Below are positions 1-15,803 of a stretch of 15,803 bases of DNA, piece after piece. A program made the position numbers and the translations under genes. The notes beneath the pieces were generated by a model. It saw only the letters and a program-made list of their open reading frames with translations, did no database searches and was not told the DNA's origin. Each line of letters starts with the position of its first letter. Positions within the stretch are counted from its first letter, which is position 1. The DNA is from a virus (Duplodnaviria; Heunggongvirae; Uroviricota; Caudoviricetes), in IMG/VR virus record IMGVR_UViG_3300012075_000001, positions 1-15,803 of that record; one strand, written 5' to 3'.

Positions 1-1
1 A

Positions 2-1779: not shown

Positions 1780-1808
1780 AAATAGGGGTTCAAGTAACCC
1801 CTATTTTT
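1780..1808 (+). terminator. Intrinsic terminator between the helicase unit and the primase
   Basis: Perfect 11-bp stem AAATAGGGGTT (1780-1790) / AACCCCTATTT (1796-1806), 5-nt loop, T-run at 1804-1808. Confidence 0.75.
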
Positions 1809-1851
1809 ATTCAATAAAATTTATCTCGTGCAATTTCTAAGGGTGAAAACA

Positions 1852-3317: not shown

Positions 3318-3326
3318 GATCAAACA

Positions 3327-3842
3327 ATGACTATTAATATTGAAGTGGTTGAATACCTTGTTTCTGACTCAAGCTCTGGCGGCAAAGATTACATGCTTGT
3401 TCATGCGTATAACGTTCAAACTGGCGCGGGTTGGGTTAAGGCTTGCTATGGAAAGTTGGAAGGATCGTTTCAGATCGCGACTCATGTTTTTAGAAACGGC
3501 CAAGAAGCGAGTGACCATCTTTTAAAAAAAATCAAAGAGAAAAAACTCAAGGGATATAAACCAAAAAATCCCGAGAGCCATAAATTGTCTAGTTCAATAT
3601 TTGGAAAAATCAGAGATTTTAGCGTTGGCGAAATAGTATATAGAAAAGAACGTTTCCTTGAAATTAATGCCAATCAAACGACAAAGGCGACATTGAGCCA
3701 GTTTCTAAGTGGGCCAGAGCTTGATTTGTTATTTGAAATTATGGATGACGAGAACACGCCTGTATTCGCCAAAGCCTCCGCAGACTCAGAAGCAAAACGT
3801 ATCCAAGAAAGCTACGGCTCAAGATGGGGAGCTTGGTCATGA
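3327..3842 (+). CDS. WGR-domain-like protein
   Basis: N-terminal pattern KDY.......V...YGK.......F.....A.......K.KEK..KGY resembles WGR domains, with YGK in place of WGR. Ends in RWGAWS. AGGA RBS upstream. Confidence 0.6.
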   Translation: MTINIEVVEYLVSDSSSGGKDYMLVHAYNVQTGAGWVKACYGKLEGSFQIATHVFRNGQEASDHLLKKIKEKKLKGYKPKNPESHKLSSSIFGKIRDFSVGEIVYRKERFLEINANQTTKATLSQFLSGPELDLLFEIMDDENTPVFAKASADSEAKRIQESYGSRWGAWS

Positions 3843-4261
3843 TCAAGCTTAAAACTGGCAGTTCATACATGAGCCATAATTTTTCCACAACAAGATCTAT
3901 TCACCTTGTTAGCGTAGATGATGACCCTCAAAAATGTGTGGTTTTTGATTTTATTACCGTGCAGAAAGCAAATGGCAAACTCAAGATTACAGACAATAGT
4001 TTTGTATGTCGCATTGACGAGGGGATAAATCACCTTGCGCTTGAGGTGGAAAAATTAGGAAAGGACGAAAAATTTGCAGGCTCTAAACCAGTTCAGTTCG
4101 GACTATCCGCATTCAAAAACAACTCAATGATTTCAACTGAGGACATTGTTCAACGGATTGGTAAGTTTTTGACTGAAGCAAAGATAAGAAACTTGGTGTC
4201 AAAAGCGAGTGCCAGATATGAAACGGAAGGCAAGAAGTTAGTTTGGGGGAGTTGGAGTTAA
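3839..4261 (+). CDS. Hypothetical protein with C-terminal WGSWS motif
   Basis: ATG 3839 makes an ATGA overlap with the previous stop and has GGAG upstream, so it is preferred over the track's start at 3824. Ends in VWGSWS. Confidence 0.7.
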   Translation: MIKLKTGSSYMSHNFSTTRSIHLVSVDDDPQKCVVFDFITVQKANGKLKITDNSFVCRIDEGINHLALEVEKLGKDEKFAGSKPVQFGLSAFKNNSMISTEDIVQRIGKFLTEAKIRNLVSKASARYETEGKKLVWGSWS

Positions 4262-4347
4262 TGCAGGCAATCACATCTAGTTCATTTAAACCCCAAGTCG
4301 CTAACTCTAAAATGAGCTTAACGAAACAAGCAAAGAGTAATAAATGA
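4261..4347 (+). CDS. Possible 28-aa translational-coupling micro-ORF
   Basis: MQAITSSSFKPQVANSKMSLTKQAKSNK*. It starts in a TAATG overlap with the upstream stop and ends in an ATGA overlap with the start at 4344, filling the gap exactly. Confidence 0.4.
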   Translation: MQAITSSSFKPQVANSKMSLTKQAKSNK

Positions 4348-4943
4348 AAAATCGTATAGAAACAGTGCCTTTTGTGGATACAGCGATTTATCCCATTGAG
4401 GCTTCAGCGCAGGGCGGGAACGCTTATTATCTTGAGCATTGCGGCGCTTCAGGGTATCGACCAGCTTATGCCTCGTGTTTAAACCGCATACGCGAGATAG
4501 AAGAAGGTAAATCACTTCCATCTGTAGAGTATGGTTGCTCTGCTGCGATATGCAATAACGTTTGTCAGGCATTGACCATGCATCAAGAAGAGAAGCGTAA
4601 AGGTGTGGCGATTTACTACATCAACCGAGTTAAGATGCGCCAAAATACACGTTACAACGCAGCTCAGTACGGTATTAAAATTTCTGAAATTGCGATTAAA
4701 AACGATATCAAAAAGCCGTCTGTAAAACCCGTTGAACCATCTAATCCGTTTGAAGTTGGCAGCATAGCTGATGCAATCAACAGCCGAGTTGCAAAGGAAT
4801 ATCAAGAGGAAAATAAACAATCCGCTTTAAATTCCAGCGATAAACCTTTATCATCACAAACAGATCAGTCAGTACTGACTGTTAGTAAAGGGATGTCATT
4901 AATAGATATTGCAAAAGCAAAGCGACAACTATCAAACGCTTAA
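4344..4943 (+). CDS. Hypothetical protein, Cys-containing N-terminal domain and low-complexity C-terminal tail
   Basis: 199-aa ORF co-directional with its neighbours. Five Cys in HCG...SCL...GCSAAICNNVC. Confidence 0.75.
   Translation: MKNRIETVPFVDTAIYPIEASAQGGNAYYLEHCGASGYRPAYASCLNRIREIEEGKSLPSVEYGCSAAICNNVCQALTMHQEEKRKGVAIYYINRVKMRQNTRYNAAQYGIKISEIAIKNDIKKPSVKPVEPSNPFEVGSIADAINSRVAKEYQEENKQSALNSSDKPLSSQTDQSVLTVSKGMSLIDIAKAKRQLSNA
4863..4884. promoter_or_regulatory. Operator palindrome copy 1 (inside the coding sequence)
   Basis: GATCAGTCAG-TA-CTGACTGTTA, containing the perfect 16-bp palindrome CAGTCAGTACTGACTG (4866-4881). Lies 79 bp upstream of ORF 4964. Confidence 0.6.
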
Positions 4944-4963
4944 TTAATAAATAAAGGTAATTT

Positions 4964-5221
4964 ATGGCTGATTTATCTAACTGTATTAGTCGCCATGTTG
5001 CTGAGGTTAAGCGAATAACAGGCGTCAAGCAAGAAGACATTATCAATGCACTCAAAAGCGTTATAGGCGATGAGTTGGGAATGTTTGCAGCAATAAACCA
5101 TTTAGACGATGCGCAAATCGCAGCAATCGTTGCTGATTTGGCAAAAGGTGTTGAGTTGATAGCTCAGCAGAAAGTTTCAAGCGTAGAGCGCATTAAGCGT
5201 GATTACATGGCCCGTTTCTGA
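4964..5221 (+). CDS. Hypothetical helical protein (85 aa)
   Basis: AAGGT RBS upstream, co-directional, immediately precedes the ligase. Confidence 0.7.
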   Translation: MADLSNCISRHVAEVKRITGVKQEDIINALKSVIGDELGMFAAINHLDDAQIAAIVADLAKGVELIAQQKVSSVERIKRDYMARF

Positions 5222-5249
5222 CGGGTCGTTCTAAAATTTGGAGTAACAA

Positions 5250-6653
5250 ATGGCAACTTTGGAGCCAGTTTTAACGCAAACGTTTAACAGTGACCTTGCA
5301 TGTCAGGCGCTTAATGAAATAGCTGAAGAAAGTTCTAAAAATAAAAAATTGGAAATGGTGAGCCACTATATAAGCAATCCTTTGTTTAAAGAGGTTTGTT
5401 CGCTTGCTTACAACCCATTCCGTATTTTTGGTGTGCTTCCTGAAAAAGACGCGAAGGGCACTGGCGAATTGTGGTTTGATGAAGCAGACACCTTAGAAAT
5501 CATATACGCATTAGAAAAGCGTGAGCTTACAGGTAATGCGGCACGTGAAGCGATTCGTTGTCAGTTGGCCCAATTGAGCGAAAAGTCAGGCGATCTATTT
5601 ATTCGAATTTTGCGTAAAGACTTACGCGCGGGCTTTAGTGAATCAACAATCAACAAAGCGTGCAAAGGCTTAATTCCTGAATTTCCTTATCAACGTTGTT
5701 CTTTGCCCAAAGATGCAAAATTTGACACGTGGACATGGGACAAGGGCGTTTTCTCACAAGAGAAGGCAGATGGAATGTACGCGAACGGCAATAAGGTCAT
5801 CGGTGAGTCGCTTTCATTCGTTTCGCGTCAAGGCTCACAATTCCCTATGGAAGAGTTCCAAGCCATCATAGAAGAAGCGGAGTTGTTACTTCAACCTAAC
5901 TTCCAGTATCACGGTGAACTTCTAGTTGAGCGTGACGGCGTAGAGCTTCCACGTGAGATCGGCAACGGCATTCTTAATAGCGTTCTGAAGGGCGGTAAGT
6001 TTGGTGAAAATGAGCGACCGATTTACAAAGTGTGGGATCTTATCCCGTTAGAAGCCATTGTGCCAAAGGGCGTGTTTAAAGCGCCGTACGCAAATCGTTT
6101 CCGCACATTATTCAACATGGTGAAGGCTGGCAATAATATTCGCATCATTGAGACGCGCATTGTAAATAGCCTAAGCGATGCATATAAGCACTGTGAAGAA
6201 CTTCTCCTAAAAGGGAAGGAGGGAACAGTCATCAAAAATTCAACAGCAATCTGGAAGGACAGCACAAGCAAAGAGCAAATCAAATTAAAGCTTGAGGCTG
6301 ACTGTGAGTTAGAAGTTGTTGCTATCAATGAAGGCAAGACTGGCTCGAAAAATGAAGGGCGGGCAGGGGCGTTAAATTGTAAATCTGCATGTGGTCAATT
6401 AATTGTAGACGTTGCCATTAAGAATGAAAAATTACGTGATGAAGTGGATGCAAACCCTAATGACTGGATTGGTCGCATCATTACGGTACGTTCAAACTCA
6501 GTTTTAAAACCTTCTGCTAGTAGCTCTAATTATTCGCTGTTCTTGCCGCGTATGGTTGAAGCTTGCTATCGCTTAGATAAAACAGTTGCAGACGACTTAG
6601 CACGCATTTATGAGCAGTTCGATAACGCTATTAAAAACGTACAGGTAGGTTAA
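5250..6653 (+). CDS. ATP-dependent DNA ligase, T4 gp30 type
   Basis: Motif I EKADG (adenylated Lys), HGEL, WDLIP, motif IV EGTVIK, motif V KLK, OB-fold with SLFLPR. GGAG RBS. Confidence 0.95.
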   Translation: MATLEPVLTQTFNSDLACQALNEIAEESSKNKKLEMVSHYISNPLFKEVCSLAYNPFRIFGVLPEKDAKGTGELWFDEADTLEIIYALEKRELTGNAAREAIRCQLAQLSEKSGDLFIRILRKDLRAGFSESTINKACKGLIPEFPYQRCSLPKDAKFDTWTWDKGVFSQEKADGMYANGNKVIGESLSFVSRQGSQFPMEEFQAIIEEAELLLQPNFQYHGELLVERDGVELPREIGNGILNSVLKGGKFGENERPIYKVWDLIPLEAIVPKGVFKAPYANRFRTLFNMVKAGNNIRIIETRIVNSLSDAYKHCEELLLKGKEGTVIKNSTAIWKDSTSKEQIKLKLEADCELEVVAINEGKTGSKNEGRAGALNCKSACGQLIVDVAIKNEKLRDEVDANPNDWIGRIITVRSNSVLKPSASSSNYSLFLPRMVEACYRLDKTVADDLARIYEQFDNAIKNVQVG

Positions 6654-6658
6654 TAACA

Positions 6659-7060
6659 ATGGGAAAAATACAAGGGAAACACAAATCTGCTTTGGCGGTA
6701 GTTCTAACTGCAGTATTGGCAGCAGCGGGAATTGCAACTTTTGCACCTTCTACACATGCAGCGGTTGCGGCTCGTTCTTCTTCGGTATCTTCAGCGCGTT
6801 CTGTTTCGGTTTCGCGACCTTCGACAATTCGCTCAGTTTCAACAACGCCAGTGCGAACAAGCTATCGACCTACAGTTAGCAAACCTAAGCCAGCTGTGAC
6901 AAAACCTACAACGCCAGCCCGTACTTCGTATGTGAGTAGTTCAGCCAAAAAAAAGAAGATTACATCTTCCGGCCCTGAATACGATTATTACGAGTTTGAT
7001 GATTGTAAGCCTTACTCAAGCATTACCTTCAATGGCTGGAAATGCCTAGATCGCGACTAA
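6659..7060 (+). CDS. Secreted or periplasmic Ser/Thr/Pro-rich protein
   Basis: Basic N-terminus, hydrophobic ALAVVLTAVLAAAGIATF, THA-A cleavage-like site, long S/T/P/R/K low-complexity region, acidic-aromatic C-terminus with two Cys. Confidence 0.7.
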   Translation: MGKIQGKHKSALAVVLTAVLAAAGIATFAPSTHAAVAARSSSVSSARSVSVSRPSTIRSVSTTPVRTSYRPTVSKPKPAVTKPTTPARTSYVSSSAKKKKITSSGPEYDYYEFDDCKPYSSITFNGWKCLDRD

Positions 7061-7071
7061 AGGATAAAAAT

Positions 7072-7695
7072 ATGATTTTAGTAATTTCAGGAAAAACGTG
7101 CGCTGGCAAATCAACTCTAGCCAATCACTTGATTCAAAATTGTGGTTTTGGCCGTATTGTAACCTGCACAACGCGACAACCGCGTGAAGGCGAAAAGAAC
7201 GGTGTTCACTACCACTTTCTAACGCAAGAGCAGTTCAAGAATGCCATCGATAAGGATGAGTTCATTGAGTTTAATATGCATGGCGGTGCAATGTACGGAG
7301 TGCGTAAAAAAGAAATCATTCAAGCAATGGATGCGCCGTTTGATTCGCTTGTGGTAATTGAGCCTGTAGGTCGTCGTAAGCTCACGAAATACCTTAAAGG
7401 CAATGAAATGCGCTATCTGTCTATTTACTTGGACATAAGCCCAAGCATACAGGCAGAGCGCTTTATGAACCGCATTCAAGCGGCTAAAGCCAGCGAACTT
7501 ACTGATCTCACAGATCGTATGACATCAATGCTTGAAGTTGAACAAGGCTGGTTAAGAGAGTCTACAACGGACGGCTCTTGTGACATGGTGTTTTCATCAT
7601 TTAACAATGTATCTGACTTAAAACATGTTTCAGATACAGTTATGACGCATGTTAAAAAGGCGCTTGAAAATATGGGAAAAGCTAAGGCAGTTTAA
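7072..7695 (+). CDS. Guanylate-kinase-like nucleoside monophosphate kinase
   Basis: P-loop GKTCAGKST; guanylate-kinase signature TTRQPREGEKNGVHYHF...EF...I....FIE...H...YG. Start moved to ATG 7072 (AAGGA RBS) from the track's 7042. Confidence 0.88.
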   Translation: MILVISGKTCAGKSTLANHLIQNCGFGRIVTCTTRQPREGEKNGVHYHFLTQEQFKNAIDKDEFIEFNMHGGAMYGVRKKEIIQAMDAPFDSLVVIEPVGRRKLTKYLKGNEMRYLSIYLDISPSIQAERFMNRIQAAKASELTDLTDRMTSMLEVEQGWLRESTTDGSCDMVFSSFNNVSDLKHVSDTVMTHVKKALENMGKAKAV

Positions 7696-7745
7696 TTAGC
7701 CTAAGTAAAAAGTTCCAAGTTTATCAGCACTCTCTATCTATACTT

Positions 7746-7773
7746 AACTCCATGTAGGCACATGGAGTTTTTT
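7746..7773 (+). promoter_or_regulatory. Terminator-like hairpin that sequesters the RBS of ORF 7775
   Basis: Perfect 10-bp stem AACTCCATGT (7746-7755) / ACATGGAGTT (7760-7769), loop AGGC, then a T-run to 7773. GGAG (7764-7767) sits in the 3' arm, 7 nt before ATG 7775. Confidence 0.65.
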
Positions 7774-7774
7774 C

Positions 7775-8389
7775 ATGCTTTTAAAAGATGTACCAGGCGT
7801 TTTGCCAAGACTAGAAAATTCATTAATTTCAAAAACAGATATGTGGACTTCAGATGTAGATAGCGTCATTCCAGCACAATTTTTGGCATTCAGAACACTC
7901 ATAAAATCTGATTTTCCTGAAGTGGATATTGATCGAGATATTAATTATCTTGTGCGTCAGGTACAGTTTGCAGAGCTTGAAAACGTTTTAACGTCACCTT
8001 TGAGAAATTATATTGAACCTTGCGACGCTCACATGCTTATGAGTGAATTAAAAGAAGGTTTGCAAAAACTTGATCAGACTTATCAGCACGCTTTCTTATT
8101 TGGTATGGAAATCGGTTATTCGGCATTTCAAATCGAAAACATGTCATACCAACAAGCTATTAGAGGATGCCCTAAGTCAGCGCTGGCAACGAGTATTATT
8201 AATTCATTGGTGCCGAGTTCACGGACAATAAATGCCTTCTGGAAAGTAGAAGATGGCCAACATGTCCGATTAGATGATCTTGAGTCTGAAATTTACCGCG
8301 CTTTTGGTAAAACATGGCGTGAGTTGTTATCCGGGTACTCGCGATTAATTGCGGACGAAATTGACGTTGATTTTGTAATGTATCTATAG
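7775..8389 (+). CDS. Hypothetical protein, possibly a degenerate tyrosine-recombinase-like fold
   Basis: 204-aa ORF with GGAG RBS. The segment YQHAFLFGMEIGYSAFQIENMSY mimics the box I pattern of tyrosine recombinases but lacks the catalytic Arg. The fold call is weak. Confidence 0.7.
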   Translation: MLLKDVPGVLPRLENSLISKTDMWTSDVDSVIPAQFLAFRTLIKSDFPEVDIDRDINYLVRQVQFAELENVLTSPLRNYIEPCDAHMLMSELKEGLQKLDQTYQHAFLFGMEIGYSAFQIENMSYQQAIRGCPKSALATSIINSLVPSSRTINAFWKVEDGQHVRLDDLESEIYRAFGKTWRELLSGYSRLIADEIDVDFVMYL

Positions 8390-8446
8390 CAATCGGCTAA
8401 AAAGTGCTAGAAATAGATCTGAGATAATGAGCTTACGGTAACCCAA

Positions 8447-8809
8447 ATGCTGCAAATCAGATTGGACGTTCTAGCTGCGGCCCGTCAGTTGGTAACGGCT
8501 TACGGGCTAGTATTTAAGGCTGAGTATTCACTTATTCAAAATCATGTAGATGGCGGCATCTTAGTTGAAATAAGCGCTAAGACTCCACTTACTACCTCGC
8601 CGATTGTTCATATTAGATATGAGCGAGAAGGCACCAATATTACTGTCAAATTGCCTATGGCTTATCATGACATAACTGGCTCATATTCTGACGATTACAA
8701 ATTCTTTTCAGAATGGGTTAATCGCCTATTTAATGAAGATGAATTTGTTAGAGCAAATAAAGAGTTCTGGATTAAAAAAGGTCGAATTGATGGCAATAAG
8801 TTGTTTTAG
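8447..8809 (+). CDS. Hypothetical protein (120 aa)
   Basis: Co-directional ORF, last before the bidirectional terminator. A possible extended -10 (TGaGATAAT, 8420-8428) lies upstream. No clear RBS. Confidence 0.6.
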   Translation: MLQIRLDVLAAARQLVTAYGLVFKAEYSLIQNHVDGGILVEISAKTPLTTSPIVHIRYEREGTNITVKLPMAYHDITGSYSDDYKFFSEWVNRLFNEDEFVRANKEFWIKKGRIDGNKLF

Positions 8810-8881
8810 TATTAACTTAATCACATAAATGCTTTAAAATATTAAACTTAAATTAATAATTCATTCTGCGTTTGAAAGTTT

Positions 8882-8918
8882 AAAAGGCCCTGCATTGTTC
8901 AGGGCCTTTATTTTTTTT
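8882..8918. terminator. Bidirectional intrinsic terminator between convergent units
   Basis: 10-bp stem AAAGGCCCTG (8883-8892) / CAGGGCCTTT (8900-8909), 7-nt loop, T8 at 8911-8918 on the + strand and an A-run on the left. Confidence 0.85.
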
Positions 8919-9330
8919 AGACTTTATAACCCATTTTTTTGAGGGTTTTTTCTGTGCTTTCCATTAACGCTTTAGTCACGATTTGAGTCATGTCGACTTT
9001 CTTAGGACTGCTTAGCTGTTCGATCGCAACAATAAACTTGAGTCTTAAAAACAATTCAGCGGGTAAGTTTGCTGAAAATTTTTGAGTAGCAATCATCAAC
9101 TCCTCTTCTGACATTGTTGTTCTTTGGCGCCACGGTGCAACGTCATTTAAAAAGTTAGTCGCTTCAGCTGCTTTTTGCTGAACTTCAACCACTTCCTCTT
9201 CCACTTCAACGGCTTTTGGTGCTTGAGTTTGAGGCTGAGCTGCTACAGGTGCAGAGTTCAAAATTGCTTCTTTAGCGTCGTTATTGCGAGGTGTACGCGT
9301 AGGCAATGGTGCGTTCTTATCGTTTGCCAT
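8917..9330 (-). CDS. Type Ib partition centromere-binding protein (ParG/omega-like, C-terminal ribbon-helix-helix)
   Basis: Overlaps the parA stop. Disordered Ala/Pro/Glu-rich N-terminus; C-terminal QKFSANLPAELFLRLK...MTQIVTKAL fits a strand-helix-helix pattern. Start moved to ATG 9330 (GAGGAG upstream). Confidence 0.75.
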   Translation of the reverse strand: MANDKNAPLPTRTPRNNDAKEAILNSAPVAAQPQTQAPKAVEVEEEVVEVQQKAAEATNFLNDVAPWRQRTTMSEEELMIATQKFSANLPAELFLRLKFIVAIEQLSSPKKVDMTQIVTKALMESTEKTLKKMGYKV

Positions 9331-9994
9331 TTTCAATAATCTCCTCAAGTAACTGTTCAAATTCTTTGATTGCAATGCGGTTGTTTACGTCTACTTCCAT
9401 TTCGGTAATGCCGATGTTGTTTCGATAAGCACGGCTATATGGCATGCGTAAACGCATAATGGTTTGTAAACGTGGGGCTTCATTCTCGATAGCTTCAAGG
9501 GCCTTTAATGTGTCGCGTAGATCAACCGAGTTGTCTGCCGCAGGCGCTTGAGTAATTACTGGATGTACTACGATTGGCTTTTCGTTAGAAGGCAAACGCA
9601 CTTCTTCGTTAATTAAATCAACCAGATCCAACAGCGTATAAAGACCTTTGAGATCTTGAGCTCCAACTTTTAAAGGGGCAACAATTACATCAGCCGCCAA
9701 TAAAGCCGAACGCATTTCAGCCGAGTCATATCCGGGAGTGTCAATTACAACGTACTCGTATTCCTCGTTTAGACGACGAGCTTCTTCTTCAATATTTCCA
9801 GTTAAATGAAAGAATTTACCGTTTTCTACTTCGTTTTCGGCTTCTCTTGCTTGGCTCCATTCGAAAGAGCCTTTGTTAGCATCTAGGTCAATACCGATAA
9901 CAGTGTTACCTTTTTGGTGCAGCGCGGCCACGGTAGATGTGGCTAGAGTTGTTTTGCTCACGCCGCCTTTTGTATTGGCGTACACGATAATCAT
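9317..9994 (-). CDS. parA: Type Ib ParA (ParF-like) partition ATPase
   Basis: Deviant Walker A KGGVSKTT at the extreme N-terminus (no N-terminal HTH), IDLDAN, Walker B VVIDTPG, AADVIVAP. Start moved to ATG 9994 (AAGGAA RBS), giving 225 aa. Confidence 0.92.
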   Translation of the reverse strand: MIIVYANTKGGVSKTTLATSTVAALHQKGNTVIGIDLDANKGSFEWSQAREAENEVENGKFFHLTGNIEEEARRLNEEYEYVVIDTPGYDSAEMRSALLAADVIVAPLKVGAQDLKGLYTLLDLVDLINEEVRLPSNEKPIVVHPVITQAPAADNSVDLRDTLKALEAIENEAPRLQTIMRLRMPYSRAYRNNIGITEMEVDVNNRIAIKEFEQLLEEIIENGKR

Positions 9995-10017
9995 CAAAAT
10001 TTCCTTAGTTAAGTTGG

Positions 10018-10088
10018 CATAAACGCCTATAAAACAGAAACATTCTAGTAAACAGAACAGGCGTTGTAAACTAGACGCACTAGAAAAC
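10018..10088. repeat. Four imperfect ~18-bp direct repeats; candidate centromere/par operator
   Basis: cataaacgcctataaaac / agaaacattctagtaaac / agaacaggcgttgtaaac / tagacgcactagaaaac. The terminal AAAC ends at 10035, 10053, 10071 and 10088 (spacing 18, 18, 17), between the par promoter and the parA RBS. Confidence 0.5.
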
Positions 10089-10098
10089 AAGACCATTT

Positions 10099-10128
10099 GT
10101 TATAAAGTTCATGTACTGTATTTGTAAA
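10099..10128 (-). promoter_or_regulatory. Sigma70-type promoter of the par operon
   Basis: On the - strand: -35 TTTACA (10128-10123) or TTACAA (10127-10122), 18- or 17-bp spacer, -10 TATAAC (10104-10099). Confidence 0.6.
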
Positions 10129-10141
10129 ACACCATTAGATC

Positions 10142-10195
10142 ATATTACCGTATTACCATACGCCCATACACACACATGATATTACGGTAATACGG
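10142..10195. repeat. Two palindromic TATTAC-N-GTA(A/T)TA boxes forming both a direct and an inverted repeat
   Basis: ATATTACCGTATTACC (10142-10157) and ATATTACGGTAATACG (10179-10194) match at 13/16. CCGTATTACC (10148-10157) and GGTAATACGG (10186-10195) are a perfect 10-bp inverted repeat. Confidence 0.6.
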
Positions 10196-10783
10196 CTAGT
10201 CGTTAAGTTTCTCGGCAATACTGCGAAGTAACTCAGGGTCGGATGCAAAGTACTTTTGAGTTGTAAGGATTGAGCTGTGGCCCATAAGTTGTTGAATAGA
10301 GTAGATATCCCCGCCCTTTCGTATTAAACGCGTTGCAAATGAACGTCTTCCTGAATGGCTGGTTGCGTGAATGCCTGCTTTTTTATAGCAGTTATTTATC
10401 ATCGTACACATGGTGTTTGGAGAGAATGGACCACCCTTCTGAGATAAAAATAATGGCGCATTGGGGTCTTTGGGTCGTTCCTTTTTTATGTATTCTTCGA
10501 TTAAATCTCTTGCAATTGGATTGACTAAAAAGACTTCCCGATACTTATTGCCTTTCGTAATTTTGCCAAGTAATCGGACAATATCTTTTAGTTTATCCTT
10601 TCTAATGTCATACACATCACCAACGGTCAACATTGATAATTCTTTGGCTCGCAAACCTAGAAAATGAGAAAAATACAAAACACATTTGTTTCTTAATGCA
10701 TTGACGCCCTTTTGAGTGGCCAATGTTACTTCTAAATCATCTTCCGAGATATACGGGGCCTTTCCGGTTGTTGTTCTTGCCAT
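10196..10783 (-). CDS. Short tyrosine recombinase/resolvase (catalytic domain only, FimB-like size)
   Basis: Full catalytic set: GLRAKE (R), KGNK (K), HSGRRS (HxxR), MGHS (H), TQKY (Y). About 195 aa from ATG 10783; the track's TTG 10819 has no RBS and overlaps the repeat site. Confidence 0.92.
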   Translation of the reverse strand: MARTTTGKAPYISEDDLEVTLATQKGVNALRNKCVLYFSHFLGLRAKELSMLTVGDVYDIRKDKLKDIVRLLGKITKGNKYREVFLVNPIARDLIEEYIKKERPKDPNAPLFLSQKGGPFSPNTMCTMINNCYKKAGIHATSHSGRRSFATRLIRKGGDIYSIQQLMGHSSILTTQKYFASDPELLRSIAEKLND

Positions 10784-10800
10784 AAGTAGACCAAATAATT

Positions 10801-10900
10801 TTTTATTACATTTTTCCAAAATGGAAAAGGATAAGAAAATAGTCTACCACAGGCTGAAAAATAAAAAATGTAATAAAAGATACATTTTATTATATTTTTT
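10801..10900. repeat. Candidate recombinase binding/crossover site: 16-6-16 inverted repeat plus a third arm copy
   Basis: AAAAAATGTAATAAAA (10863-10878) - GATACA - TTTTATTATATTTTTT (10885-10900), one mismatch between arms. TTTTATTACATTTTT (10801-10815) is an exact reverse complement of 10864-10878. Confidence 0.65.
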
Positions 10901-10917
10901 CTGGACGAAGCAATCAA
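10889..10917 (-). promoter_or_regulatory. Sigma70 promoter of the recombinase
   Basis: On the - strand: TTGATT (10917-10912), 17 bp, TATAAT (10894-10889). The -10 lies inside one arm of the inverted repeat. Confidence 0.7.
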
Positions 10918-11079
10918 AGTGCGTCATCATCTGACGTAGACAGATCTTTATATTCAAAGGGGTATTTTCGACTATGGATTTAATTGGTAAGCTATGCTTA
11001 ACTTGATTGTGTAACGTTTTCAAGTTTCGAAAAGTAAGAGGAAGTGAATATGGATATAGATTGCCAAATGATTGAAAAC

Positions 11080-11111
11080 AAAAAAATAATGCCCGACTAT
11101 AAGCGGGCATT
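11080..11111 (-). terminator. Intrinsic terminator of the repressor gene
   Basis: 8-bp stem AATGCCCG (11088-11095) / CGGGCATT (11104-11111), followed on the - strand by A and T7 (11086-11080); 34 bp after the repressor stop. Confidence 0.8.
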
Positions 11112-11145
11112 TAATGAGAGAGCAAATATTGGGCTAGGCGCTGTT

Positions 11146-11613
11146 TTACAGGTCGTTTTTGCCCAAGTATGCATTTTCTTTTTGGGACTCCATTTCATCA
11201 CGATGCTTGATCGTTTCTGCTTCCATTTCCTTAGCAAGCTCAACAAACTTATCATGCGTATCACCGTACAGATTAGGGTCTTCCTTAGTCGTACTGCGAA
11301 GCACTTTAATGATGTTAACCTCGTTTGGTGTTAAAGGGGTTTGGTTAGTGATACTTTCAATCACATCGATTAAATCAGGCATGTATTCAGTTAGAACGCG
11401 CACAAGAAAGCGAGTAGGGTTTTCGCCTAGAGCCAAAGCAGTCGGCTTGATCTTATCAATAGGCAAGCGAGTTTCGCCGCTCTTGATCATTGATAGTACG
11501 TTAGGACGTTTGAAGCCAATTTCCTCAGCAATCTCACGCTGGCTCTTTGGAGAATTATCGATCAGGTCGGTGAGAAATTCTGCCACAGTCATATTGTTGC
11601 GATTTTTGGCCAT
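11146..11613 (-). CDS. XRE/Cro-CI-family HTH transcriptional repressor
   Basis: N-terminal HTH SQREIAEEIGFKRPNVLSMIKSGETRLP...ALALG. No peptidase S24 domain visible. Start moved to ATG 11613 (GGAG 6 nt upstream). Confidence 0.88.
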   Translation of the reverse strand: MAKNRNNMTVAEFLTDLIDNSPKSQREIAEEIGFKRPNVLSMIKSGETRLPIDKIKPTALALGENPTRFLVRVLTEYMPDLIDVIESITNQTPLTPNEVNIIKVLRSTTKEDPNLYGDTHDKFVELAKEMEAETIKHRDEMESQKENAYLGKNDL

Positions 11614-11695
11614 TTGCCTCTCCAAATACAGAGTTAAATTTTTCCTATGATGAGTTGCAATTCAGTTTGTAATAATCCAGAACATGAGATTCTAT

Positions 11696-11717
11696 ATTTA
11701 CTCAGAACTGACTGATT
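11696..11717. promoter_or_regulatory. Operator palindrome copy 2 (repressor leader)
   Basis: ATTTACTCAG-AA-CTGACTGATT, just downstream of a minus-strand TATAAT at 11738-11733. Confidence 0.65.
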
Positions 11718-11766
11718 TTGAATTACAGCACTATTATAGGTGGTGGGGGACTAATTTTATAGAAAA

Positions 11767-11788
11767 AATCAGTCACTCGTGAATTATA
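11767..11788. promoter_or_regulatory. Operator palindrome copy 3 (repressor promoter region)
   Basis: AATCAGTCAC-TC-GTGAATTATA, overlapping a second minus-strand TATAAT at 11788-11783. Confidence 0.6.
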
Positions 11789-11924
11789 TACGCCCAAGTT
11801 TACAAACTAGAGGCCGCGAATGCAAAGCGTATTCGATTGATTGGGCTAATTTTTTCCAGATTTTTTGTTATTTTTTTTATTCAAAAATAGGAAAAAACTA
11901 ATTTTTGGCAGTGCTAGAAACTCC

Positions 11925-12012
11925 AAAATTAACATTTTAAAATTAACTGTTTATATAATCTGCATAAATTTTAACAGGTTATATAAACTTAACTTAACTT
12001 ACAAAACTTAAC
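11925..12012. repeat. AT-rich repeat cluster (TTAAC family)
   Basis: TTAACTGTTTATATAA (11943-11958) and TTAACAGGTTATATAA (11971-11986) match at 14/16, 28 bp apart. AAAATTAAC occurs twice (11925, 11939); AACTT occurs three times in tandem (11986-12000). A plus-strand TATAAT lies at 11954-11959. Confidence 0.5.
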
Positions 12013-12051
12013 GAACGAAATGTTTTGTAATTATCAAATGAGGAGAAATGA

Positions 12052-12105
12052 ATGAATACATACAACAACTGGCTTATAAATGTTCAAACAGTCACTTCTG
12101 ACTGA
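12052..12105 (+). CDS. Possible 17-aa leader peptide
   Basis: Strong GAGGAG (12040-12045) 6 nt before ATG 12052. Translation MNTYNNWLINVQTVTSD*; the stop lies inside operator copy 4. Confidence 0.3.
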   Translation: MNTYNNWLINVQTVTSD

Positions 12106-12107
12106 TT
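12086..12107. promoter_or_regulatory. Operator palindrome copy 4
   Basis: AAACAGTCAC-TT-CTGACTGATT, upstream of a plus-strand TATAAT (12137-12142) that precedes ORF 12216. Confidence 0.7.
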
Positions 12108-12215
12108 TTATTAAAAGCTTTTGATCGAACCGTAACTATAATATACGGGGCTGAAATGATGAGACGTATATTAATAGCCTCTTCAAAATCTTTATAAATC
12201 AGAATGGTGATATAA

Positions 12216-12416
12216 ATGACTGTGACATTGAATGAACAATTCCAAAGTGTAGATTTGGACGAACTTGCTGAACTTTTAGAAAAAACGGAAGGTAGTCAAA
12301 CCTTATTAGATGACGGCTTCTATACCGTGAAACGCTATAACCATCTGAATTTCGGTGCAATTGAGGTAGTTAATACCTGTGCGCCTACAAGTATAGTGCG
12401 CGTGGTAAATCCATAA
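12216..12416 (+). CDS. Small acidic hypothetical protein (66 aa)
   Basis: GGTG RBS upstream. First gene of the rightward unit, divergent from the repressor. Confidence 0.7.
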   Translation: MTVTLNEQFQSVDLDELAELLEKTEGSQTLLDDGFYTVKRYNHLNFGAIEVVNTCAPTSIVRVVNP

Positions 12417-12444
12417 TTTTTATAAGAATATCTTTTCCGCTGTT

Positions 12445-12492
12445 AGCAAGAATGAGGCGGTTATAAAGTCGCCCTCTTGCTTAAGCTTTTTT
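12445..12492 (+). terminator. Possible terminator/attenuator between ORF 12216 and the cobT-like gene
   Basis: Interrupted stem AGCAAGA (12445-12451) / TCTTGCT (12475-12481) with an inner GGCGG/TCGCC pairing, followed after a few bases by T6. Confidence 0.35.
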
Positions 12493-12508
12493 AAGCCTCA
12501 CAAACCTC

Positions 12509-12537
12509 TATACACTCCACTTCTAAAAAGTCATAAT
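12509..12537 (+). promoter_or_regulatory. Possible sigma70 promoter of the cobT-like gene
   Basis: TATACA (12509-12514), 17 bp, CATAAT (12532-12537). Operator copy 5 lies immediately downstream of the predicted start site. Confidence 0.45.
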
Positions 12538-12549
12538 ACGGTCATTAAT

Positions 12550-12571
12550 AATCAGTCAGTACTGATTGAAT
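12550..12571. promoter_or_regulatory. Operator palindrome copy 5
   Basis: AATCAGTCAG-TA-CTGATTGAAT, 16 bp before the cobT-like ATG. Shares an exact 19-mer (12547-12565) with copy 6 (14625-14643). Confidence 0.75.
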
Positions 12572-12587
12572 TTGATAAGGGTCGTAT

Positions 12588-14591
12588 ATGAATAACCGTA
12601 TTGCAAATTTGCGCAAAGCTATAGTAGCTATTACTAATGCACTCATCGAGAAAAAAATTGAAGTAACTCAAATAGGTATGGACGCCTATGTGAGATCGAA
12701 TAGTGAAGGTATTCCCGTTGCTGTAAACCTTCCTTACCTTCCTGATAATGCATCTGAAGAACTCATTCAAGCAATTCAAGGATTCTTAGATCATGAGGTT
12801 GGGCACATTCTTTTTTCTGACTTCAAAGCATTAGCTATTCGCAACCCGATGTTAAAGGGCTTAACAAACATATTAGAAGATGCCCGTATTGAAAAATGTA
12901 TGGCTCAACGCTTCAAGGGTTCAGGTTCTAACCTTGACCATACGGCACATTTCTTTTTGGAGGAAATGATTACTCCAAAATTTAAAGAAGTAATGGCCCA
13001 GCCTGACGTAGATGAAACAAAGGTGATGGGCATCTTGGCAACACCTTATCTTCGTAGCCTTTCAGGTCAATCGACTTTTGAGTTTTATATGCGCGACAAG
13101 ATGCATTTGTTGCCAAACATACACGCGGCTATCAAACACCTTGCACCGCCGCTGCAAGCAATGCAGTCGTCAAAGGACGCGGTTCGCTTAGCTAAAGAAA
13201 TCTATGAAGCTTTAAAAAATCCAGAAGAGGAAAAACAGGACAATCAAGACCAGGAGAACGAAGATTGTGAGCAACAAGGGAATGGACAATCTGACGACGA
13301 GCAAGAACAGCAAGATGGCTCAAGCGGCGGAGGCTCTGAAGGCGATGGTGAGTCTGATGGTGCCGGAGACTCTTCAGGTGATGCTGAGGGCAAAGAGAGT
13401 CAAGGAAAGGGCGGTAAAGGCAACAAACCTCAAGATGCAGACGATAATGCCGAATCAGACGATAAAGGTGAACGCCACAAAAATAAGTCTGACAAATCGA
13501 ATGGTACGAGCGACCGTGATGCAGGCGACGAGTCTGGCGACGGCGACGCTCAGAAAGGGGAAGAAAAGAAGGATGTAAATCACAAGCTCAACCTTGATGC
13601 AGATTCTATTCTAGGAGAAATCGACAAAGAGTCTGCAAATGACTTTGACTCGGCATTTGCGGTTCAGCTAAGTAATGAAGCCAAAGATTTTGCATGCGAT
13701 GCGCCTTATCTTGTGTACACGAATAAACACGATGAGATCGAAACGCTAAGTGTCGGACGCGGCTTTAAACAATCGTTTATGGACGAATTAGACACGGCAA
13801 CTAAGCAAGTTACAGGTACGATCCAAAAAGACCTTGAGCGTCTTATGGCTGCTAGATCTGCTGCTGTTTGGGAGAATGGATTACGACGCGGCAAAATCAA
13901 TCAAGCCTCCCTTTCTCGACTTGCCATCAAAGATGAACGAATTTTCCGTCGCAAGCAGGAAAACCGCTCGAAAGATGTCGCAGTGACTTTACTGATTGAC
14001 TGCTCTGGCTCAATGAGGGGTAAGCGTATTCACACAGCCGCACAAGCTTCTTATGCTATGTCTAGCGTGTTAGATCGGATCAATATTGTTCATGAAGTAA
14101 TTGGGTTTACTACCAAGCACGGCGAAGAACATAACAAAAACGCACGTAGCTTTAATCACAACGGGAAGGAAGTTTACTATTCGCGAATGGAAGGTCTGTA
14201 CATGCCAATTATCAAAGGGTTTACAGAACGATTGACGCTTGATAACCGCAACCGTTTTGCATGGCTTCCTCACGCTACTTTCTTCAATACGAATGTTGAT
14301 GGTGAATGTCTTCAAATTGCAGCCCAGCGCCTTAGTCAGCGTAAAGAGGCGCGTAAAATCATTATGGTTTTAAGTGATGGTAATCCTAATGGTCATGGCC
14401 CAACTCCAACATTGAACAAACACCTCAAAGCAACCGTTGCTGACCTAACACGTTCAGGATTTGAAGTTATCGGAATTGGTATCGATACCGACTCTGTAAA
14501 ACAATTCTATCCTAAAAATGTCGCATTAAAATCTGTGGCAGACTTACCGCATACAGTGATTGGTGAGCTTCGCGCCCTATTACTCAAGTAA
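12588..14591 (+). CDS. CobT-like protein: N-terminal HExxH peptidase-like domain, acidic Gly-rich linker, C-terminal vWA
   Basis: DHEVGH followed by NILEDARIE; D/E/G/S/K/Q low-complexity linker; MIDAS LIDCSGSM, GFTT, VLSDG. Adjacent to a MoxR/CobS ATPase. Confidence 0.88.
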   Translation: MNNRIANLRKAIVAITNALIEKKIEVTQIGMDAYVRSNSEGIPVAVNLPYLPDNASEELIQAIQGFLDHEVGHILFSDFKALAIRNPMLKGLTNILEDARIEKCMAQRFKGSGSNLDHTAHFFLEEMITPKFKEVMAQPDVDETKVMGILATPYLRSLSGQSTFEFYMRDKMHLLPNIHAAIKHLAPPLQAMQSSKDAVRLAKEIYEALKNPEEEKQDNQDQENEDCEQQGNGQSDDEQEQQDGSSGGGSEGDGESDGAGDSSGDAEGKESQGKGGKGNKPQDADDNAESDDKGERHKNKSDKSNGTSDRDAGDESGDGDAQKGEEKKDVNHKLNLDADSILGEIDKESANDFDSAFAVQLSNEAKDFACDAPYLVYTNKHDEIETLSVGRGFKQSFMDELDTATKQVTGTIQKDLERLMAARSAAVWENGLRRGKINQASLSRLAIKDERIFRRKQENRSKDVAVTLLIDCSGSMRGKRIHTAAQASYAMSSVLDRINIVHEVIGFTTKHGEEHNKNARSFNHNGKEVYYSRMEGLYMPIIKGFTERLTLDNRNRFAWLPHATFFNTNVDGECLQIAAQRLSQRKEARKIIMVLSDGNPNGHGPTPTLNKHLKATVADLTRSGFEVIGIGIDTDSVKQFYPKNVALKSVADLPHTVIGELRALLLK

Positions 14592-14627
14592 ACAATGGCA
14601 AAGATAGTCAGTTGGGGTTATTTAAAT

Positions 14628-14649
14628 AATCAGTCAGTACTGACTATCT
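14628..14649. promoter_or_regulatory. Operator palindrome copy 6
   Basis: AATCAGTCAG-TA-CTGACTATCT in the cobT-cobS intergenic region, 81 bp upstream of the ATPase start. Confidence 0.75.
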
Positions 14650-14730
14650 TTTCCTGAGAGTTATTAGTATTATTTACGCATATTCTAAAGACAGTAATTA
14701 GTCTAGTTTTATCTTTGTGAGATTTACAAA

Positions 14731-15803
14731 ATGTCAGTAACAGCAAACGAAACAATCACATGTATGCTTTGTAAAGGGCAAGCACACTCAATTGCACATC
14801 ATCTTAAAAGTGATCACCCAACGGTGACTATTGAGCAATATAAAAGTCAGTATCCACAAGCGCCAATTTATTCTCCTGCGATGATTGAGCGCGCCAAAAT
14901 CAAAGAAGCAGAAAAGAAAAAGGCTCAACAAGAGCAAGCGCAATCAGCGGCTCCCGTAAGCAGTGCTGTCATTTCAAAGCCGGGTTCTTTCGCGCCAAAA
15001 GACACAGTTGTTGCCCGTAAATTGCACGAACTTTTCAACATTCAAGGCCCTGAAGGTAAAAATGCTCAAGGTGAAGCTTTAAATGTAACTTGTATTGAAA
15101 ACTCTTCTTCGCCAGATATGGTGCCTGAAGTAAACGATACTTACGTTTATGAGCCTGAAATTCTGAAAAACGTTTTGATTGCGCTTGAATTGAATATCCC
15201 TTTCTATGTTTTTGGACACAAAGGTACTGGTAAAACTGAACTCATCGATCAAGTTGCTGCTCGTACTGGTCGTCCAATTGTGCGTATTCAACATACAGCA
15301 AACACTGAAGAGGCTCATATTGTCGGTCAATGGACAGTTACTAACGGTACGATGACTTTCCAGCTTGGGCCATTAGCTTTAGCGATGAAATACGGTTGGA
15401 TTTATTTAGCAGACGAATATGACTTTGCTCAACCAAGTGTATTGTCAGTTTATCAAGCTGTGATGGAAGGTAAGCCGCTTAACATCAAAGAGGCTGATAT
15501 CGACAACCGCATCATCAAACCTCATCCAAATTTCCGTTTCTGCGCTACTGGTAACACGAACGGCACGGGTGATGAGTCAGGCTTGTATTCAGGCACAACA
15601 ATTCAAAACAGCGCAAACTACGACCGTTTCGGCATCGTGATGGAAAAACATTACATGTCTAAACAAGATGAGATTGCCGCTATCGTTCGCCACACTCAGG
15701 TTGACCCTGAAGATGCGAAAAACCTTGTCGAATTTGCCACCAAAGTGCGTGCTGCTTATAGCAATAAAGAAGTAAGCGACACTATCTCTCTTCGTTCATT
15801 GAT
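14731..15803 (+). CDS. CobS/MoxR-family AAA+ ATPase with N-terminal C2H2 zinc finger, 3'-truncated (absent from the ORF track)
   Basis: Manual translation from ATG 14731, open to the window end: MSVTANETITCMLCKGQAHSIAHHLKSDH...; Walker A GHKGTGKT, Walker B YLADEYD, sensor I ATGNT, arginine finger NYDRF, sensor II ISLRSL. Confidence 0.92.
   Translation, partial: MSVTANETITCMLCKGQAHSIAHHLKSDHPTVTIEQYKSQYPQAPIYSPAMIERAKIKEAEKKKAQQEQAQSAAPVSSAVISKPGSFAPKDTVVARKLHELFNIQGPEGKNAQGEALNVTCIENSSSPDMVPEVNDTYVYEPEILKNVLIALELNIPFYVFGHKGTGKTELIDQVAARTGRPIVRIQHTANTEEAHIVGQWTVTNGTMTFQLGPLALAMKYGWIYLADEYDFAQPSVLSVYQAVMEGKPLNIKEADIDNRIIKPHPNFRFCATGNTNGTGDESGLYSGTTIQNSANYDRFGIVMEKHYMSKQDEIAAIVRHTQVDPEDAKNLVEFATKVRAAYSNKEVSDTISLRSL

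What the first reader, a model, noticed from the sequence alone, without database searches (positions are those of the whole stretch)
10196..10917. Minimal tyrosine recombinase with a loxP/dif-like site overlapping its own promoter
Seen: 16-bp arms around an asymmetric 6-bp spacer (GATACA), a third exact 15-bp arm copy about 60 bp closer to the gene, a small TTTTCCA-AAA-TGGAAAA inverted repeat (10812-10828) between them, and the -10 of a TTGATT-17-TATAAT promoter inside one arm. The enzyme keeps all catalytic residues but has only about 195 aa and no N-terminal core-binding domain. Established: tyrosine recombinases act on inverted arms flanking 6-8-bp spacers (dif 11-6-11, loxP 13-8-13), and plasmid resolvases often autorepress from their res site. 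Inference: this is the element's Cre/lox equivalent, for multimer resolution or circularisation of the injected genome, with built-in autoregulation and a possible accessory subsite. It could be a new compact recombination tool.
Basis: partly seen in the sequence, partly recalled or inferred. Interest (0 to 1): 0.7.

Follow-up and report, generated by a model that had tools for sequence, protein, structure and literature searches.

The report
Minimal recombinase with its own lox-like site
An Acinetobacter phage-plasmid carries a half-size DNA recombinase whose own 13-6-13 palindromic target sits just upstream of its gene; the pair most likely keeps the plasmid in single copies, and it belongs to a large, untested family with several natural target specificities.

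Summary
The window is the first 15.8 kb of a circular 109.7-kb Acinetobacter phage-plasmid of the AB group (pABTJ2/ZW85p2-like).

- **Enzyme.** Gene 10783..10196 (minus strand) encodes a 195-aa tyrosine recombinase made of the catalytic domain alone. All catalytic residues are invariant across the family.
- **Site.** 79 nt upstream lies a 16-6-16 inverted repeat. It is the only such repeat in the replicon, and its arms occur nowhere else except as a third half-site 14 nt before the start codon.
- **New evidence.** The enzyme belongs to a family of about 190-200-aa recombinases. In most members with at least 48% identity, the gene is preceded by an AAATG-NNNN-AAAA / 6 bp / TTTT-NNNN-CATTT site. 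The four central bases differ between lineages (six classes) and are always matched on both arms.
- **Copy number and context.** Six host genomes were searched, each for its own arm class. Five hold one full site and the sixth two, on separate contigs. The gene is usually followed by parA.

The repeat is therefore the enzyme's own site. Multimer resolution with self-repression is the best reading, but it is inferred. Nothing supports circularisation of injected DNA.

This is a new variant of a known kind. This scan flagged the same family on other DNA before.

The parts
10196..10783 (-). int: 195-aa tyrosine recombinase made of the catalytic domain only (P0001)
   Evidence: PF00589 E=2.9e-27 over residues 13-183 and phrog_216. 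R45, E48, K77, H143, R146, H169 and Y178 are invariant in alignment A2. The AlphaFold model (pLDDT 82) matches only the C-terminal halves of XerA, XerH and Cre.
10885..10900 (-). Core site, gene-distal arm (AAAAAATATAATAAAA on the gene strand); it contains the -10 box
   Evidence: Invariant in three AB lineages while the flank beside it diverges.
10879..10884 (-). 6-bp asymmetric spacer (TGTATC on the gene strand), the presumed strand-exchange region
   Evidence: The spacer is 6 bp in all 17 canonical sites; that length was set by the search pattern, but an unconstrained search (spacers 3-9) gave the same register. Its sequence varies between lineages: GGCTTC, TGCATC, TATATC and others.
10863..10878 (-). 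Core site, gene-proximal arm (TTTTATTACATTTTTT on the gene strand)
10798..10816 (-). Third half-site, in the same orientation as the distal arm, ending 14 nt before the ATG; candidate accessory or regulatory binding site
   Evidence: Equivalent lineage-specific half-sites lie 1-47 nt before the start codon in L003, L007, L123, L126, L132 and L122.
10889..10917 (-). Predicted sigma-70 promoter TTGATT-17-TATAAT, with the predicted transcription start inside the spacer
   Evidence: 10 of 12 matches. The TATAAT box exists only because of the single arm mismatch (A instead of G). That mismatch is conserved in the AB lineages and in the Acinetobacter sp. A47 relative.
10812..10828 (.). Small repeat TTTTCCA-AAA-TGGAAAA overlapping the third half-site; function unknown
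   Evidence: Only a 5-bp TTTCC/GGAAA version is kept in relatives.
9317..10096 (-). parA (type Ib ParA/MipZ-like ATPase), directly downstream of int
   Evidence: A ParA-type gene neighbours int in 9 of 10 family loci tested.
8917..9375 (-). Small gene after parA (phrog_4064); presumed partition adaptor
   Evidence: Presumed from its position after parA; similar small genes (102-153 aa) follow the parA-like gene in nine of the loci listed. No family assignment.
11088..11111 (-). Intrinsic terminator of the upstream HTH regulator gene; it separates that gene from the int promoter

Best explanation
The 16-6-16 repeat at 10863-10900 is the recombination core site of the 195-aa recombinase encoded just downstream.

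Proposed mechanism:
1. Two enzyme molecules bind the two arms. The outer AAATG and the inner A-tract are common to the family, and arm positions 6-9 set the specificity.
2. Two such sites on a plasmid dimer pair up, and strands are exchanged across the 6-bp asymmetric spacer.
3. This converts multimers of the circular phage-plasmid into monomers, which the adjacent ParA-ParB system can then segregate.
4. In this lineage the distal arm holds the -10 box and the predicted transcription start falls in the spacer. Bound enzyme should therefore shut off its own promoter.
5. The extra half-site 14 nt before the ATG would bind a further enzyme molecule. That could reinforce repression and/or act as an accessory site favouring resolution, as the DR motifs do for TnpI on the Tn4430 IRS.

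Shown here: the anatomy of the site, its uniqueness, the matched changes on both arms, the single copy per replicon, the intact catalytic residues, the catalytic-domain-only fold and the parAB synteny.
Inferred: binding, catalysis, resolution and repression.
For: 1. It is the only 13-6-13 repeat in 109.7 kb and is not expected by chance. The arms occur nowhere else in the replicon.
2. In 26 of 43 distinct upstream regions, and in nearly all with at least 48% protein identity, a site of form AAATG-NNNN-AAAA/6/TTTT-NNNN-CATTT lies 38-196 nt upstream of the gene.
3. These give 17 distinct sites in 6 arm classes. Arm positions 6-9 take 2-4 different bases, and the two arms match in 17 of 17 sites. 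Hosts range from Acinetobacter to Rhodoferax.
4. Copy number: the TAAT-class site occurs once in host G001 and is absent from G002 and G003. The CCCT-class site occurs once each in G002, G003, G073 and G202 and twice, on separate contigs, in G156.
5. In 201 Acinetobacter species genomes, near-matches to the site were no more frequent than matches to the reversed control pattern.
6. The catalytic R, K, H-x-x-R, H and Y residues are invariant, and the fold is that of the XerA/XerH/Cre catalytic domain.
7. The int-parA-small gene order is conserved.
8. The terminator-promoter-site-gene layout and the conserved arm mismatch that creates TATAAT.
9. Precedent: the TnpI/IRS system has a core repeat plus accessory same-protein motifs beside it (PMC2847244). 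Phage-plasmids are expected to carry dimer-resolving recombinases, as P1 carries Cre (PMC7969092).
Against: - No recombination product, dimer or hybrid site was observed. No expression or binding data exist.
- All known catalytic-domain-only tyrosine recombinases (FimB/FimE type) are invertases that need host factors (my own knowledge, not checked here). Autonomous Cre-like activity is therefore not assured.
- Overlap of site and promoter is not universal in the family. In some members the site lies 140-196 nt upstream and the third half-site is absent.
- About a third of the more distant members show no canonical site.
- The matched arm changes prove a symmetric binding site, not catalysis at it.
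Confidence: 0.6

Rival explanations
1. Operator only. The protein acts mainly as a sequence-specific repressor of its own (and perhaps the par) transcription, the repeat is just its operator, and no biologically relevant recombination takes place.
For: The -10 box lies inside one arm and a further half-site lies next to the start codon. One site per replicon fits an operator equally well. Matched arm changes are expected for any dimeric DNA binder.
Against: All six catalytic residues are invariant down to 56% identity, which argues for selection on catalysis. The fixed 6-bp spacer with variable, asymmetric sequence is the hallmark of a strand-exchange region. In many members the site lies far from any obvious promoter.
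Confidence: 0.13
2. Fusion and exchange site. The main outcome is recombination between different replicons that carry the same arms, so the core site is a hinge for swapping modules or forming cointegrates.
For: In the A. baumannii AB lineages the near-identical segment (at least 99%) starts exactly at the proximal arm. The spacer and everything to its left belong to one of two left-flank types that are about 50% identical to each other. All four left-by-right combinations exist. The same CCCT-class arms are shared by many plasmids with different spacers.
Against: The same pattern can come from homologous recombination within the conserved 657-bp linker between diversifying immunity and partition modules. 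The other boundary, at int nucleotide ~560, has no site. No cointegrate was seen. This reading is compatible with, rather than opposed to, a resolution function.
Confidence: 0.12
3. A plasmid dif (pdif)-like site used by the host XerC/XerD enzymes, with the small recombinase unrelated to it.
For: The spacer TGTATC resembles the dif central region TGTATA, and the AT-rich arms match a XerD half-site at about 7-8 of 11 positions. This comparison is from my own memory of the consensus and was not run as a computed test.
Against: The arms are symmetric, whereas XerC and XerD half-sites differ. The arm sequence changes with the small recombinase's lineage (CCCT, TCTG and other classes) and then loses all likeness to dif. 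The site always sits upstream of this gene.
Confidence: 0.03
4. A FimB/FimE-like inversion switch that flips the 48-bp segment between the proximal arm and the inverted third copy, or a distant segment.
For: The enzyme has FimB/FimE size and architecture and gives a weak full-length NCBIfam match to tyrosine-type DNA invertases (47 bits). The proximal arm and the third copy are inverted repeats (I1).
Against: The third copy is a lone half-site. A 48-bp segment is very short for synapsis. No second full site exists in the replicon. All relatives show a single orientation. The score is far below the invertase family cut-off of 221 bits.
Confidence: 0.03
5. A structural hairpin: a transcription terminator or attenuator, or a stem in the 5' untranslated RNA, with no protein partner.
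For: The repeat is followed by a run of T. The CCCT-class sites look like terminators. The proximal arm and the third copy could pair in the RNA.
Against: A proper terminator lies 190 nt upstream. The stem is purely A/T. The outer AAATG and inner AAAA are conserved as sequence, not merely as base pairs. The predicted 5'-UTR fold does not use the arm/third-copy pairing, and its z-score is only -2.2.
Confidence: 0.02

Closest known systems
Cre/loxP of phage-plasmid P1
   Same: A phage-plasmid-encoded tyrosine recombinase with a simple palindromic site (13-bp arms, asymmetric spacer) near its own gene and one site per replicon. Cre resolves plasmid multimers (PMC7969092). The catalytic-domain folds align.
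   Different: The solved Cre chains are about 310-330 residues and align with the model only over their catalytic part. From my own knowledge, Cre is 343 aa with an N-terminal core-binding domain that clamps the DNA. The enzyme here has 195 aa and none. The spacer is 6 bp, not 8. Sequence identity is only about 17%. The site here overlaps the promoter and has an extra half-site.
TnpI / IRS of Tn4430 (and Tn5401)
   Same: A core inverted repeat with cleavage positions 6 bp apart, plus extra directly oriented motifs for the same recombinase beside the core. These motifs give resolution selectivity and need no host factors (PMC2847244). The third half-site here has the same layout.
   Different: The IRS has two accessory motifs and a 4-bp gap between its arms. 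Here there is one accessory half-site (two in L003 and L123). From my own knowledge, TnpI is a two-domain enzyme and resolves transposition cointegrates rather than plasmid dimers. Homology to TnpI was not tested.
FimB/FimE-type tyrosine DNA invertases
   Same: About 200 aa, catalytic domain only. A weak full-length profile match (NF007370, E=1.8e-12).
   Different: The score of 47 bits is far below the 221-bit cut-off. The catalytic domain is closer to the Xer proteins (XerA 103 bits, XerC 95 bits). From my own knowledge, the Fim enzymes invert a segment between two separated 9-bp repeats with help from IHF and Lrp. Here there is one palindromic site and no invertible segment.
Single-recombinase Xer systems (XerS/difSL, XerH/difH, archaeal XerA)
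   Same: The closest sequence and structure matches are XerA 5hxy (TM-score 0.76 over the query) and XerH. From my own knowledge, these use one recombinase on a near-palindromic site, and in XerS and XerH the site is genetically linked to the gene. Their role is dimer resolution.
   Different: Those enzymes are chromosomal and have two domains (PDB chains of 268-363 residues). From my own knowledge they depend on FtsK. All NCBIfam Xer cut-offs are missed by a wide margin.

Membership tests
Tyrosine recombinase superfamily (Pfam PF00589) | Catalytic R-K-H-R-H/W pentad plus the tyrosine nucleophile | tested here: met
   R45, K77, H143, R146, H169 and Y178 are invariant in 14 family members. PF00589 scores 96 bits against a cut-off of 27.1.
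Tyrosine recombinase superfamily (Pfam PF00589) | Catalytic-domain fold | tested here: met
   AlphaFold model with pLDDT 82.4. Foldseek probability 1.00 to XerA, XerH, IntI4, Cre and lambda Int catalytic domains.
Simple two-domain tyrosine recombinases (Xer, Cre; CB + CAT domains) | N-terminal core-binding domain of about 100 aa | tested here: not met
   The alignment to XerA, XerC and XerD profiles starts at profile positions 98-116. The model has only about 13 unstructured residues before the catalytic domain. The upstream 88-aa ORF has no family hit and carries a frame-breaking indel in relatives. No relative of 343 aa or more was found.
XerC / XerD / XerA / XerS equivalogs (NCBIfam) | Score above the curated family cut-off | tested here: not met
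   103, 95, 87 and 42 bits against cut-offs of 220, 335, 330 and 267.
FimB/FimE tyrosine-type DNA invertases | Score above the curated cut-off (NF007370, NF007371) | tested here: not met
   47 and 31 bits against cut-offs of 221 and 222.
FimB/FimE tyrosine-type DNA invertases | Two inverted core sites flanking an invertible segment | tested here: not met
   Only one full site in the replicon. All relatives show the same orientation.
Plasmid or phage multimer-resolution systems (Cre/loxP-like) | One cognate site per replicon, next to the recombinase gene | tested here: met
   The site lies upstream of the gene in 26 loci.
Plasmid or phage multimer-resolution systems (Cre/loxP-like) | Recombinase-dependent conversion of dimers to monomers | not testable with these tools
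   Needs a two-site reporter or a plasmid multimer assay.
TnpI/IRS-type self-controlled resolution sites | Accessory motifs bound by the same recombinase beside the core | tested here: inconclusive
   A lineage-specific extra half-site is present in 7 lineages and absent in others. Binding is untested.

The most novel reading that the evidence does not exclude
These ~190-aa catalytic-domain-only enzymes might carry out complete Cre-like recombination on a 32-bp 13-6-13 site without a core-binding domain or host factors. Nature would then already supply at least six mutually exclusive arm specificities, set by arm positions 6-9 (TAAT, CCCT, TCTG, TCCG, TAGT, and TCCT with A at position 5). That would be a ready-made set of very small orthogonal recombinases. 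It would also show that the DNA clamp formed by the N-terminal domain is dispensable for synapsis and strand exchange.
Probability: 0.3. Interest if true: 0.7.

Novelty: new variant of a known kind. Interest (0 to 1): 0.5.

Why it matters
1. **Maintenance of a clinical plasmid group.** It gives the AB-group phage-plasmids a concrete candidate multimer-resolution module (site-int-parA-parB). About 155 Acinetobacter plasmid records in PLSDB, nearly all A. baumannii, match this region. Neither the pABTJ2 paper nor the AB-group section of the phage-plasmid survey mentions the recombinase or its site.
2. **Mechanism.** The solved tyrosine recombinases that the model matches best (XerA, XerH, Cre) are two-domain enzymes. 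Their clamp-like grip on the DNA is from my own knowledge. A family that keeps every catalytic residue but has no second domain, paired with a plain lox-like site, raises the question of how synapsis and specificity are achieved. The conserved N-terminal GKAPY tail and the A-tracts beside the spacer are candidates.
3. **Tools.** The lineage-specific arm classes, matched on both arms, are a natural specificity series that could be tested directly. They would be attractive as compact orthogonal recombinases if the enzymes work alone.

Tried and rejected
- **Homodimer prediction** (complex prediction, two copies with alignment A2): no verdict. It is not used as evidence either way.
- **Near-identical phage records**: none returned.
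- **Literature**: the pABTJ2 paper does not mention an integrase or recombinase. The AB-group section of the phage-plasmid survey does not discuss the recombinase. A search for the arm motifs in full texts returned only unrelated primers.
- **RNA-structure reading of the third copy**: the predicted fold does not pair the proximal arm with the third copy. The stem it does predict (GUAGAC/GUCUAC) is not conserved in relatives.
- **Split gene**: the 88-aa ORF at 10844-11110 (minus strand) was rejected as a separate N-terminal domain. It has no family hit, overlaps the terminator and the site, and has a frame-breaking indel in relatives.
- **Weak arm-like pair at genome 65509-65567**: this is a terminator region, not a site.
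- **Chromosomal attB**: the full-site pattern in 201 Acinetobacter species genomes gave only the phage-plasmid's own copy, plus 2 two-mismatch hits against 3 for the reversed control.
- **Mosaic boundary at the core site**: suggestive of site-specific exchange, but not distinguishable from homologous recombination in the conserved linker, so it is not counted as proof.

Full report
**Context.** The window is bases 1-15803 of a 109,742-bp contig whose ends overlap by 123 bp, so the molecule is circular. It is held as a virus record.

Its genes include a DnaB helicase, primase, ligase, guanylate kinase, ParA and CobT/CobS-like proteins. The DNA is 78-81% identical to about 155 Acinetobacter (nearly all A. 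baumannii) plasmids of 105-114 kb, such as pA230-2 and ZW85p2. These are the 'AB' phage-plasmid group of Pfeifer et al. (PMC7969092).

On the minus strand the local gene order is:
- HTH regulator, 11625..11146
- intrinsic terminator, 11111..11088
- 300 bp of non-coding DNA
- int, 10783..10196
- a repeat-rich gap
- parA, 10096..9317
- a small phrog_4064 gene, 9375..8917

**Observation.**
- Arms at 10863-10878 and 10885-10900 (16 nt, one mismatch) flank a 6-bp spacer, TGTATC on the gene strand.
- A third copy at 10798-10816 has the orientation of the distal arm and ends 14 nt before the ATG.
- A small TTTTCCA-AAA-TGGAAAA repeat lies at 10812-10828.
- The TTGATT-17-TATAAT promoter has its -10 box inside the distal arm.

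The repeat is the only 13-6-13 repeat (at most 1 mismatch) in the whole replicon. Only 1 of 20 Markov-simulated genomes had any. The arm sequence occurs nowhere else in the 110 kb.

**The enzyme.** The protein (P0001) has 195 aa, and PF00589 is its only domain.
- NCBIfam aligns it to the C-terminal halves of XerA, XerC and XerD (87-103 bits). It aligns weakly but over its full length to FimB/FimE-type invertases (47 bits). Every score is far below the curated cut-off.
- The AlphaFold model (pLDDT 82) is a catalytic domain preceded by about 13 disordered residues. Its best structural matches are XerA, XerH, IntI4 and Cre, and only their catalytic parts align.
- The protein belongs to a family of 282 database clusters at E below 1e-5. 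The 120 best are 184-238 aa long. They come mostly from Acinetobacter plasmids, but also from Sulfurirhabdus, Acidovorax, Rhodoferax and Methylococcaceae.
- No relative of 343 aa or more was found.
- R45, E48, K77, H143, R146, H169 and Y178 are invariant.

The short form is therefore a stable, selected architecture and not a truncation. Catalysis is under selection.

**The decisive comparison.** I collected 142 loci that encode relatives and examined the DNA upstream of each short-form gene.
- In 26 of 43 distinct upstream regions, and in nearly all with at least 48% protein identity, a site of form AAATG-NNNN-AAAA / 6 bp / TTTT-NNNN-CATTT lies 38-196 nt before the start codon.
- The 17 distinct sites fall into six arm classes. 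At positions 6-9 these read TAAT, CCCT, TCTG, TCCG, TAGT and TCCT (the last with A at position 5).
- At positions 6-9 each column takes 2-4 different bases, and the two arms match in 17 of 17 sites. The outer AAT and the inner AAAA never vary.
- The selection rule allowed up to 2 mismatches, so part of this matching follows from how the sites were chosen. Even so, six fully compensated classes with zero breaks at the variable positions go well beyond that.
- The spacer is 6 bp in every canonical site. That length was set by the search pattern, but an unconstrained search (spacers 3-9) gave the same register. Spacer sequence varies, is asymmetric, and is biased (T at position 1, A-T at positions 4-5) in a fixed orientation relative to the gene.
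- More distant members (37-47% identity) often lack this exact form. Some carry related AAATG-type repeats.

**Copy number.** Six host genomes were searched, each for its own arm class. Five hold one full site and the sixth two, on separate contigs. In 201 Acinetobacter species genomes the TAAT-class pattern gave only the phage-plasmid's own copy, plus two 2-mismatch hits against three hits for the reversed control. No chromosomal partner site and no second site for inversion were found in the genomes searched.

**Synteny.** In 9 of 10 family loci examined, int is adjacent to a ParA-type ATPase gene. In eight of these parA lies directly downstream on the same strand; in one it is adjacent on the opposite strand. 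A gene of 102-153 aa usually follows. Site-int-parA-parB is therefore a conserved plasmid-stability cassette.

**Third half-site.** A lineage-specific extra copy of the arm lies 1-47 nt before the start codon in the AB lineages, L003, L007, L123, L126 and, more weakly, L122 and L132. It always has the orientation of the distal arm. L003 and L123 carry a fourth, inverted copy. Other members have none.

This recalls the DR1/DR2 accessory motifs of the Tn4430 IRS. Those motifs bind extra TnpI molecules beside the IR1-IR2 core and impose resolution selectivity (PMC2847244). An RNA-pairing explanation is not favoured.

**Promoter.** The terminator-promoter-site-gene layout is coherent. The single arm mismatch (A in the distal arm, G in the proximal arm) is exactly what turns TGTAAT into TATAAT. 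It is conserved in all AB lineages and in the 72%-identical A47 relative. The -35 box is not conserved, and other arm classes lack an obvious overlapping promoter. Self-repression is therefore a reasonable inference for this lineage only.

**Mosaic structure.** Among the A. baumannii lineages, about 657 bp running from the proximal arm to int nucleotide ~560 are at least 99% identical. The DNA to the left (distal flank plus spacer) and to the right (int 3' end and parA) falls into two types each, about 50% identical to one another. All four combinations exist, and the spacer type travels with the left flank.

The left boundary lies inside the core site, as expected for a crossover there. Homologous recombination within the conserved linker would give a similar picture, so I treat this as suggestive only.

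**Reading.** The repeat is the recombinase's own site; that part I hold at about 0.85. The most likely function is multimer resolution of the plasmid prophage, with self-repression and an accessory half-site (0.6).

Rivals:
- operator only (0.13)
- inter-replicon exchange hinge (0.12, not exclusive of the main reading)
- host Xer site (0.03)
- Fim-like inversion (0.03)
- plain hairpin (0.02)

Nothing supports circularisation of injected DNA.

**Novelty.** The kind of system is known: a plasmid or phage tyrosine recombinase with an adjacent core site, as in Cre/loxP, TnpI/IRS and XerS/difSL. The variant is new in two respects. The enzyme lacks the core-binding domain, which is otherwise known only from FimB/FimE-type invertases. 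The family also offers a natural series of compensated arm specificities.

I found no description of the enzyme or the site in the literature available to me.

Earlier notes of this scan flagged the same family on other DNA. One follow-up (e1-1684510) proposed the upstream 13-6-13 palindrome as the true target, and the comparative test here bears that out.

Noticed in passing
window 10143-10195: Between the int stop codon and parA lies an inverted pair, CCGTATTACC (10148-10157) and GGTAATACGG (10186-10195), plus a 13-bp palindrome TATTACGGTAATA (10180-10192). A near-copy, TATTATCGTAATA, lies at genome position 62470-62482. This is a likely par operator or centromere-like site, unrelated to the recombinase arms.
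   Followed up: partly
window 11000-11026: The block AACTTGA-N13-TCAAGTT is nearly invariant in three AB lineages while the DNA around it diverges. It lies between the HTH regulator's terminator and the int promoter and is a candidate operator for another regulator.
   Followed up: no
window 11036-11334 (+): A strong Shine-Dalgarno sequence plus ATG at 11050 on the + strand. The same position in ZW85p2 has GGAGGAGCT-ATG. The ORF is 94 aa here and 29 aa there, and it runs antisense into the HTH gene. It is a doubtful small gene or a divergent leader.
   Followed up: partly
window 10196-10900 and loci L001, L002, L102, L116: About 657 bp, from the core-site proximal arm to int nucleotide ~560, are at least 99% identical among A. 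baumannii phage-plasmid lineages whose left (HTH regulator) and right (int 3' end and parA) flanks are only about 50% identical. All four flank combinations occur, and the spacer type follows the left flank.
   Followed up: yes
window 11088-11111: The HTH gene's terminator, AATGCCCG-N8-CGGGCATT, resembles the outer half of the CCCT-class arms (AATGCCC...GGGCATT) used by related recombinases. ZW85p2 lacks the AAT/ATT ends, so this is probably chance.
   Followed up: partly
P0001 residues 5-17 and residue 127: The N-terminal tail (G-K-A-P-Y/F ... L) is conserved but predicted to be disordered. Residue 127 is T in the TAAT arm class and R or K in the other classes. Both are candidate DNA-contact or specificity elements. 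The residue-127 pattern is confounded by phylogeny.
   Followed up: partly
window 10784-10797: There is no recognisable Shine-Dalgarno sequence before the int ATG here or in several relatives, where the third half-site occupies that space. This suggests low or regulated translation.
   Followed up: no
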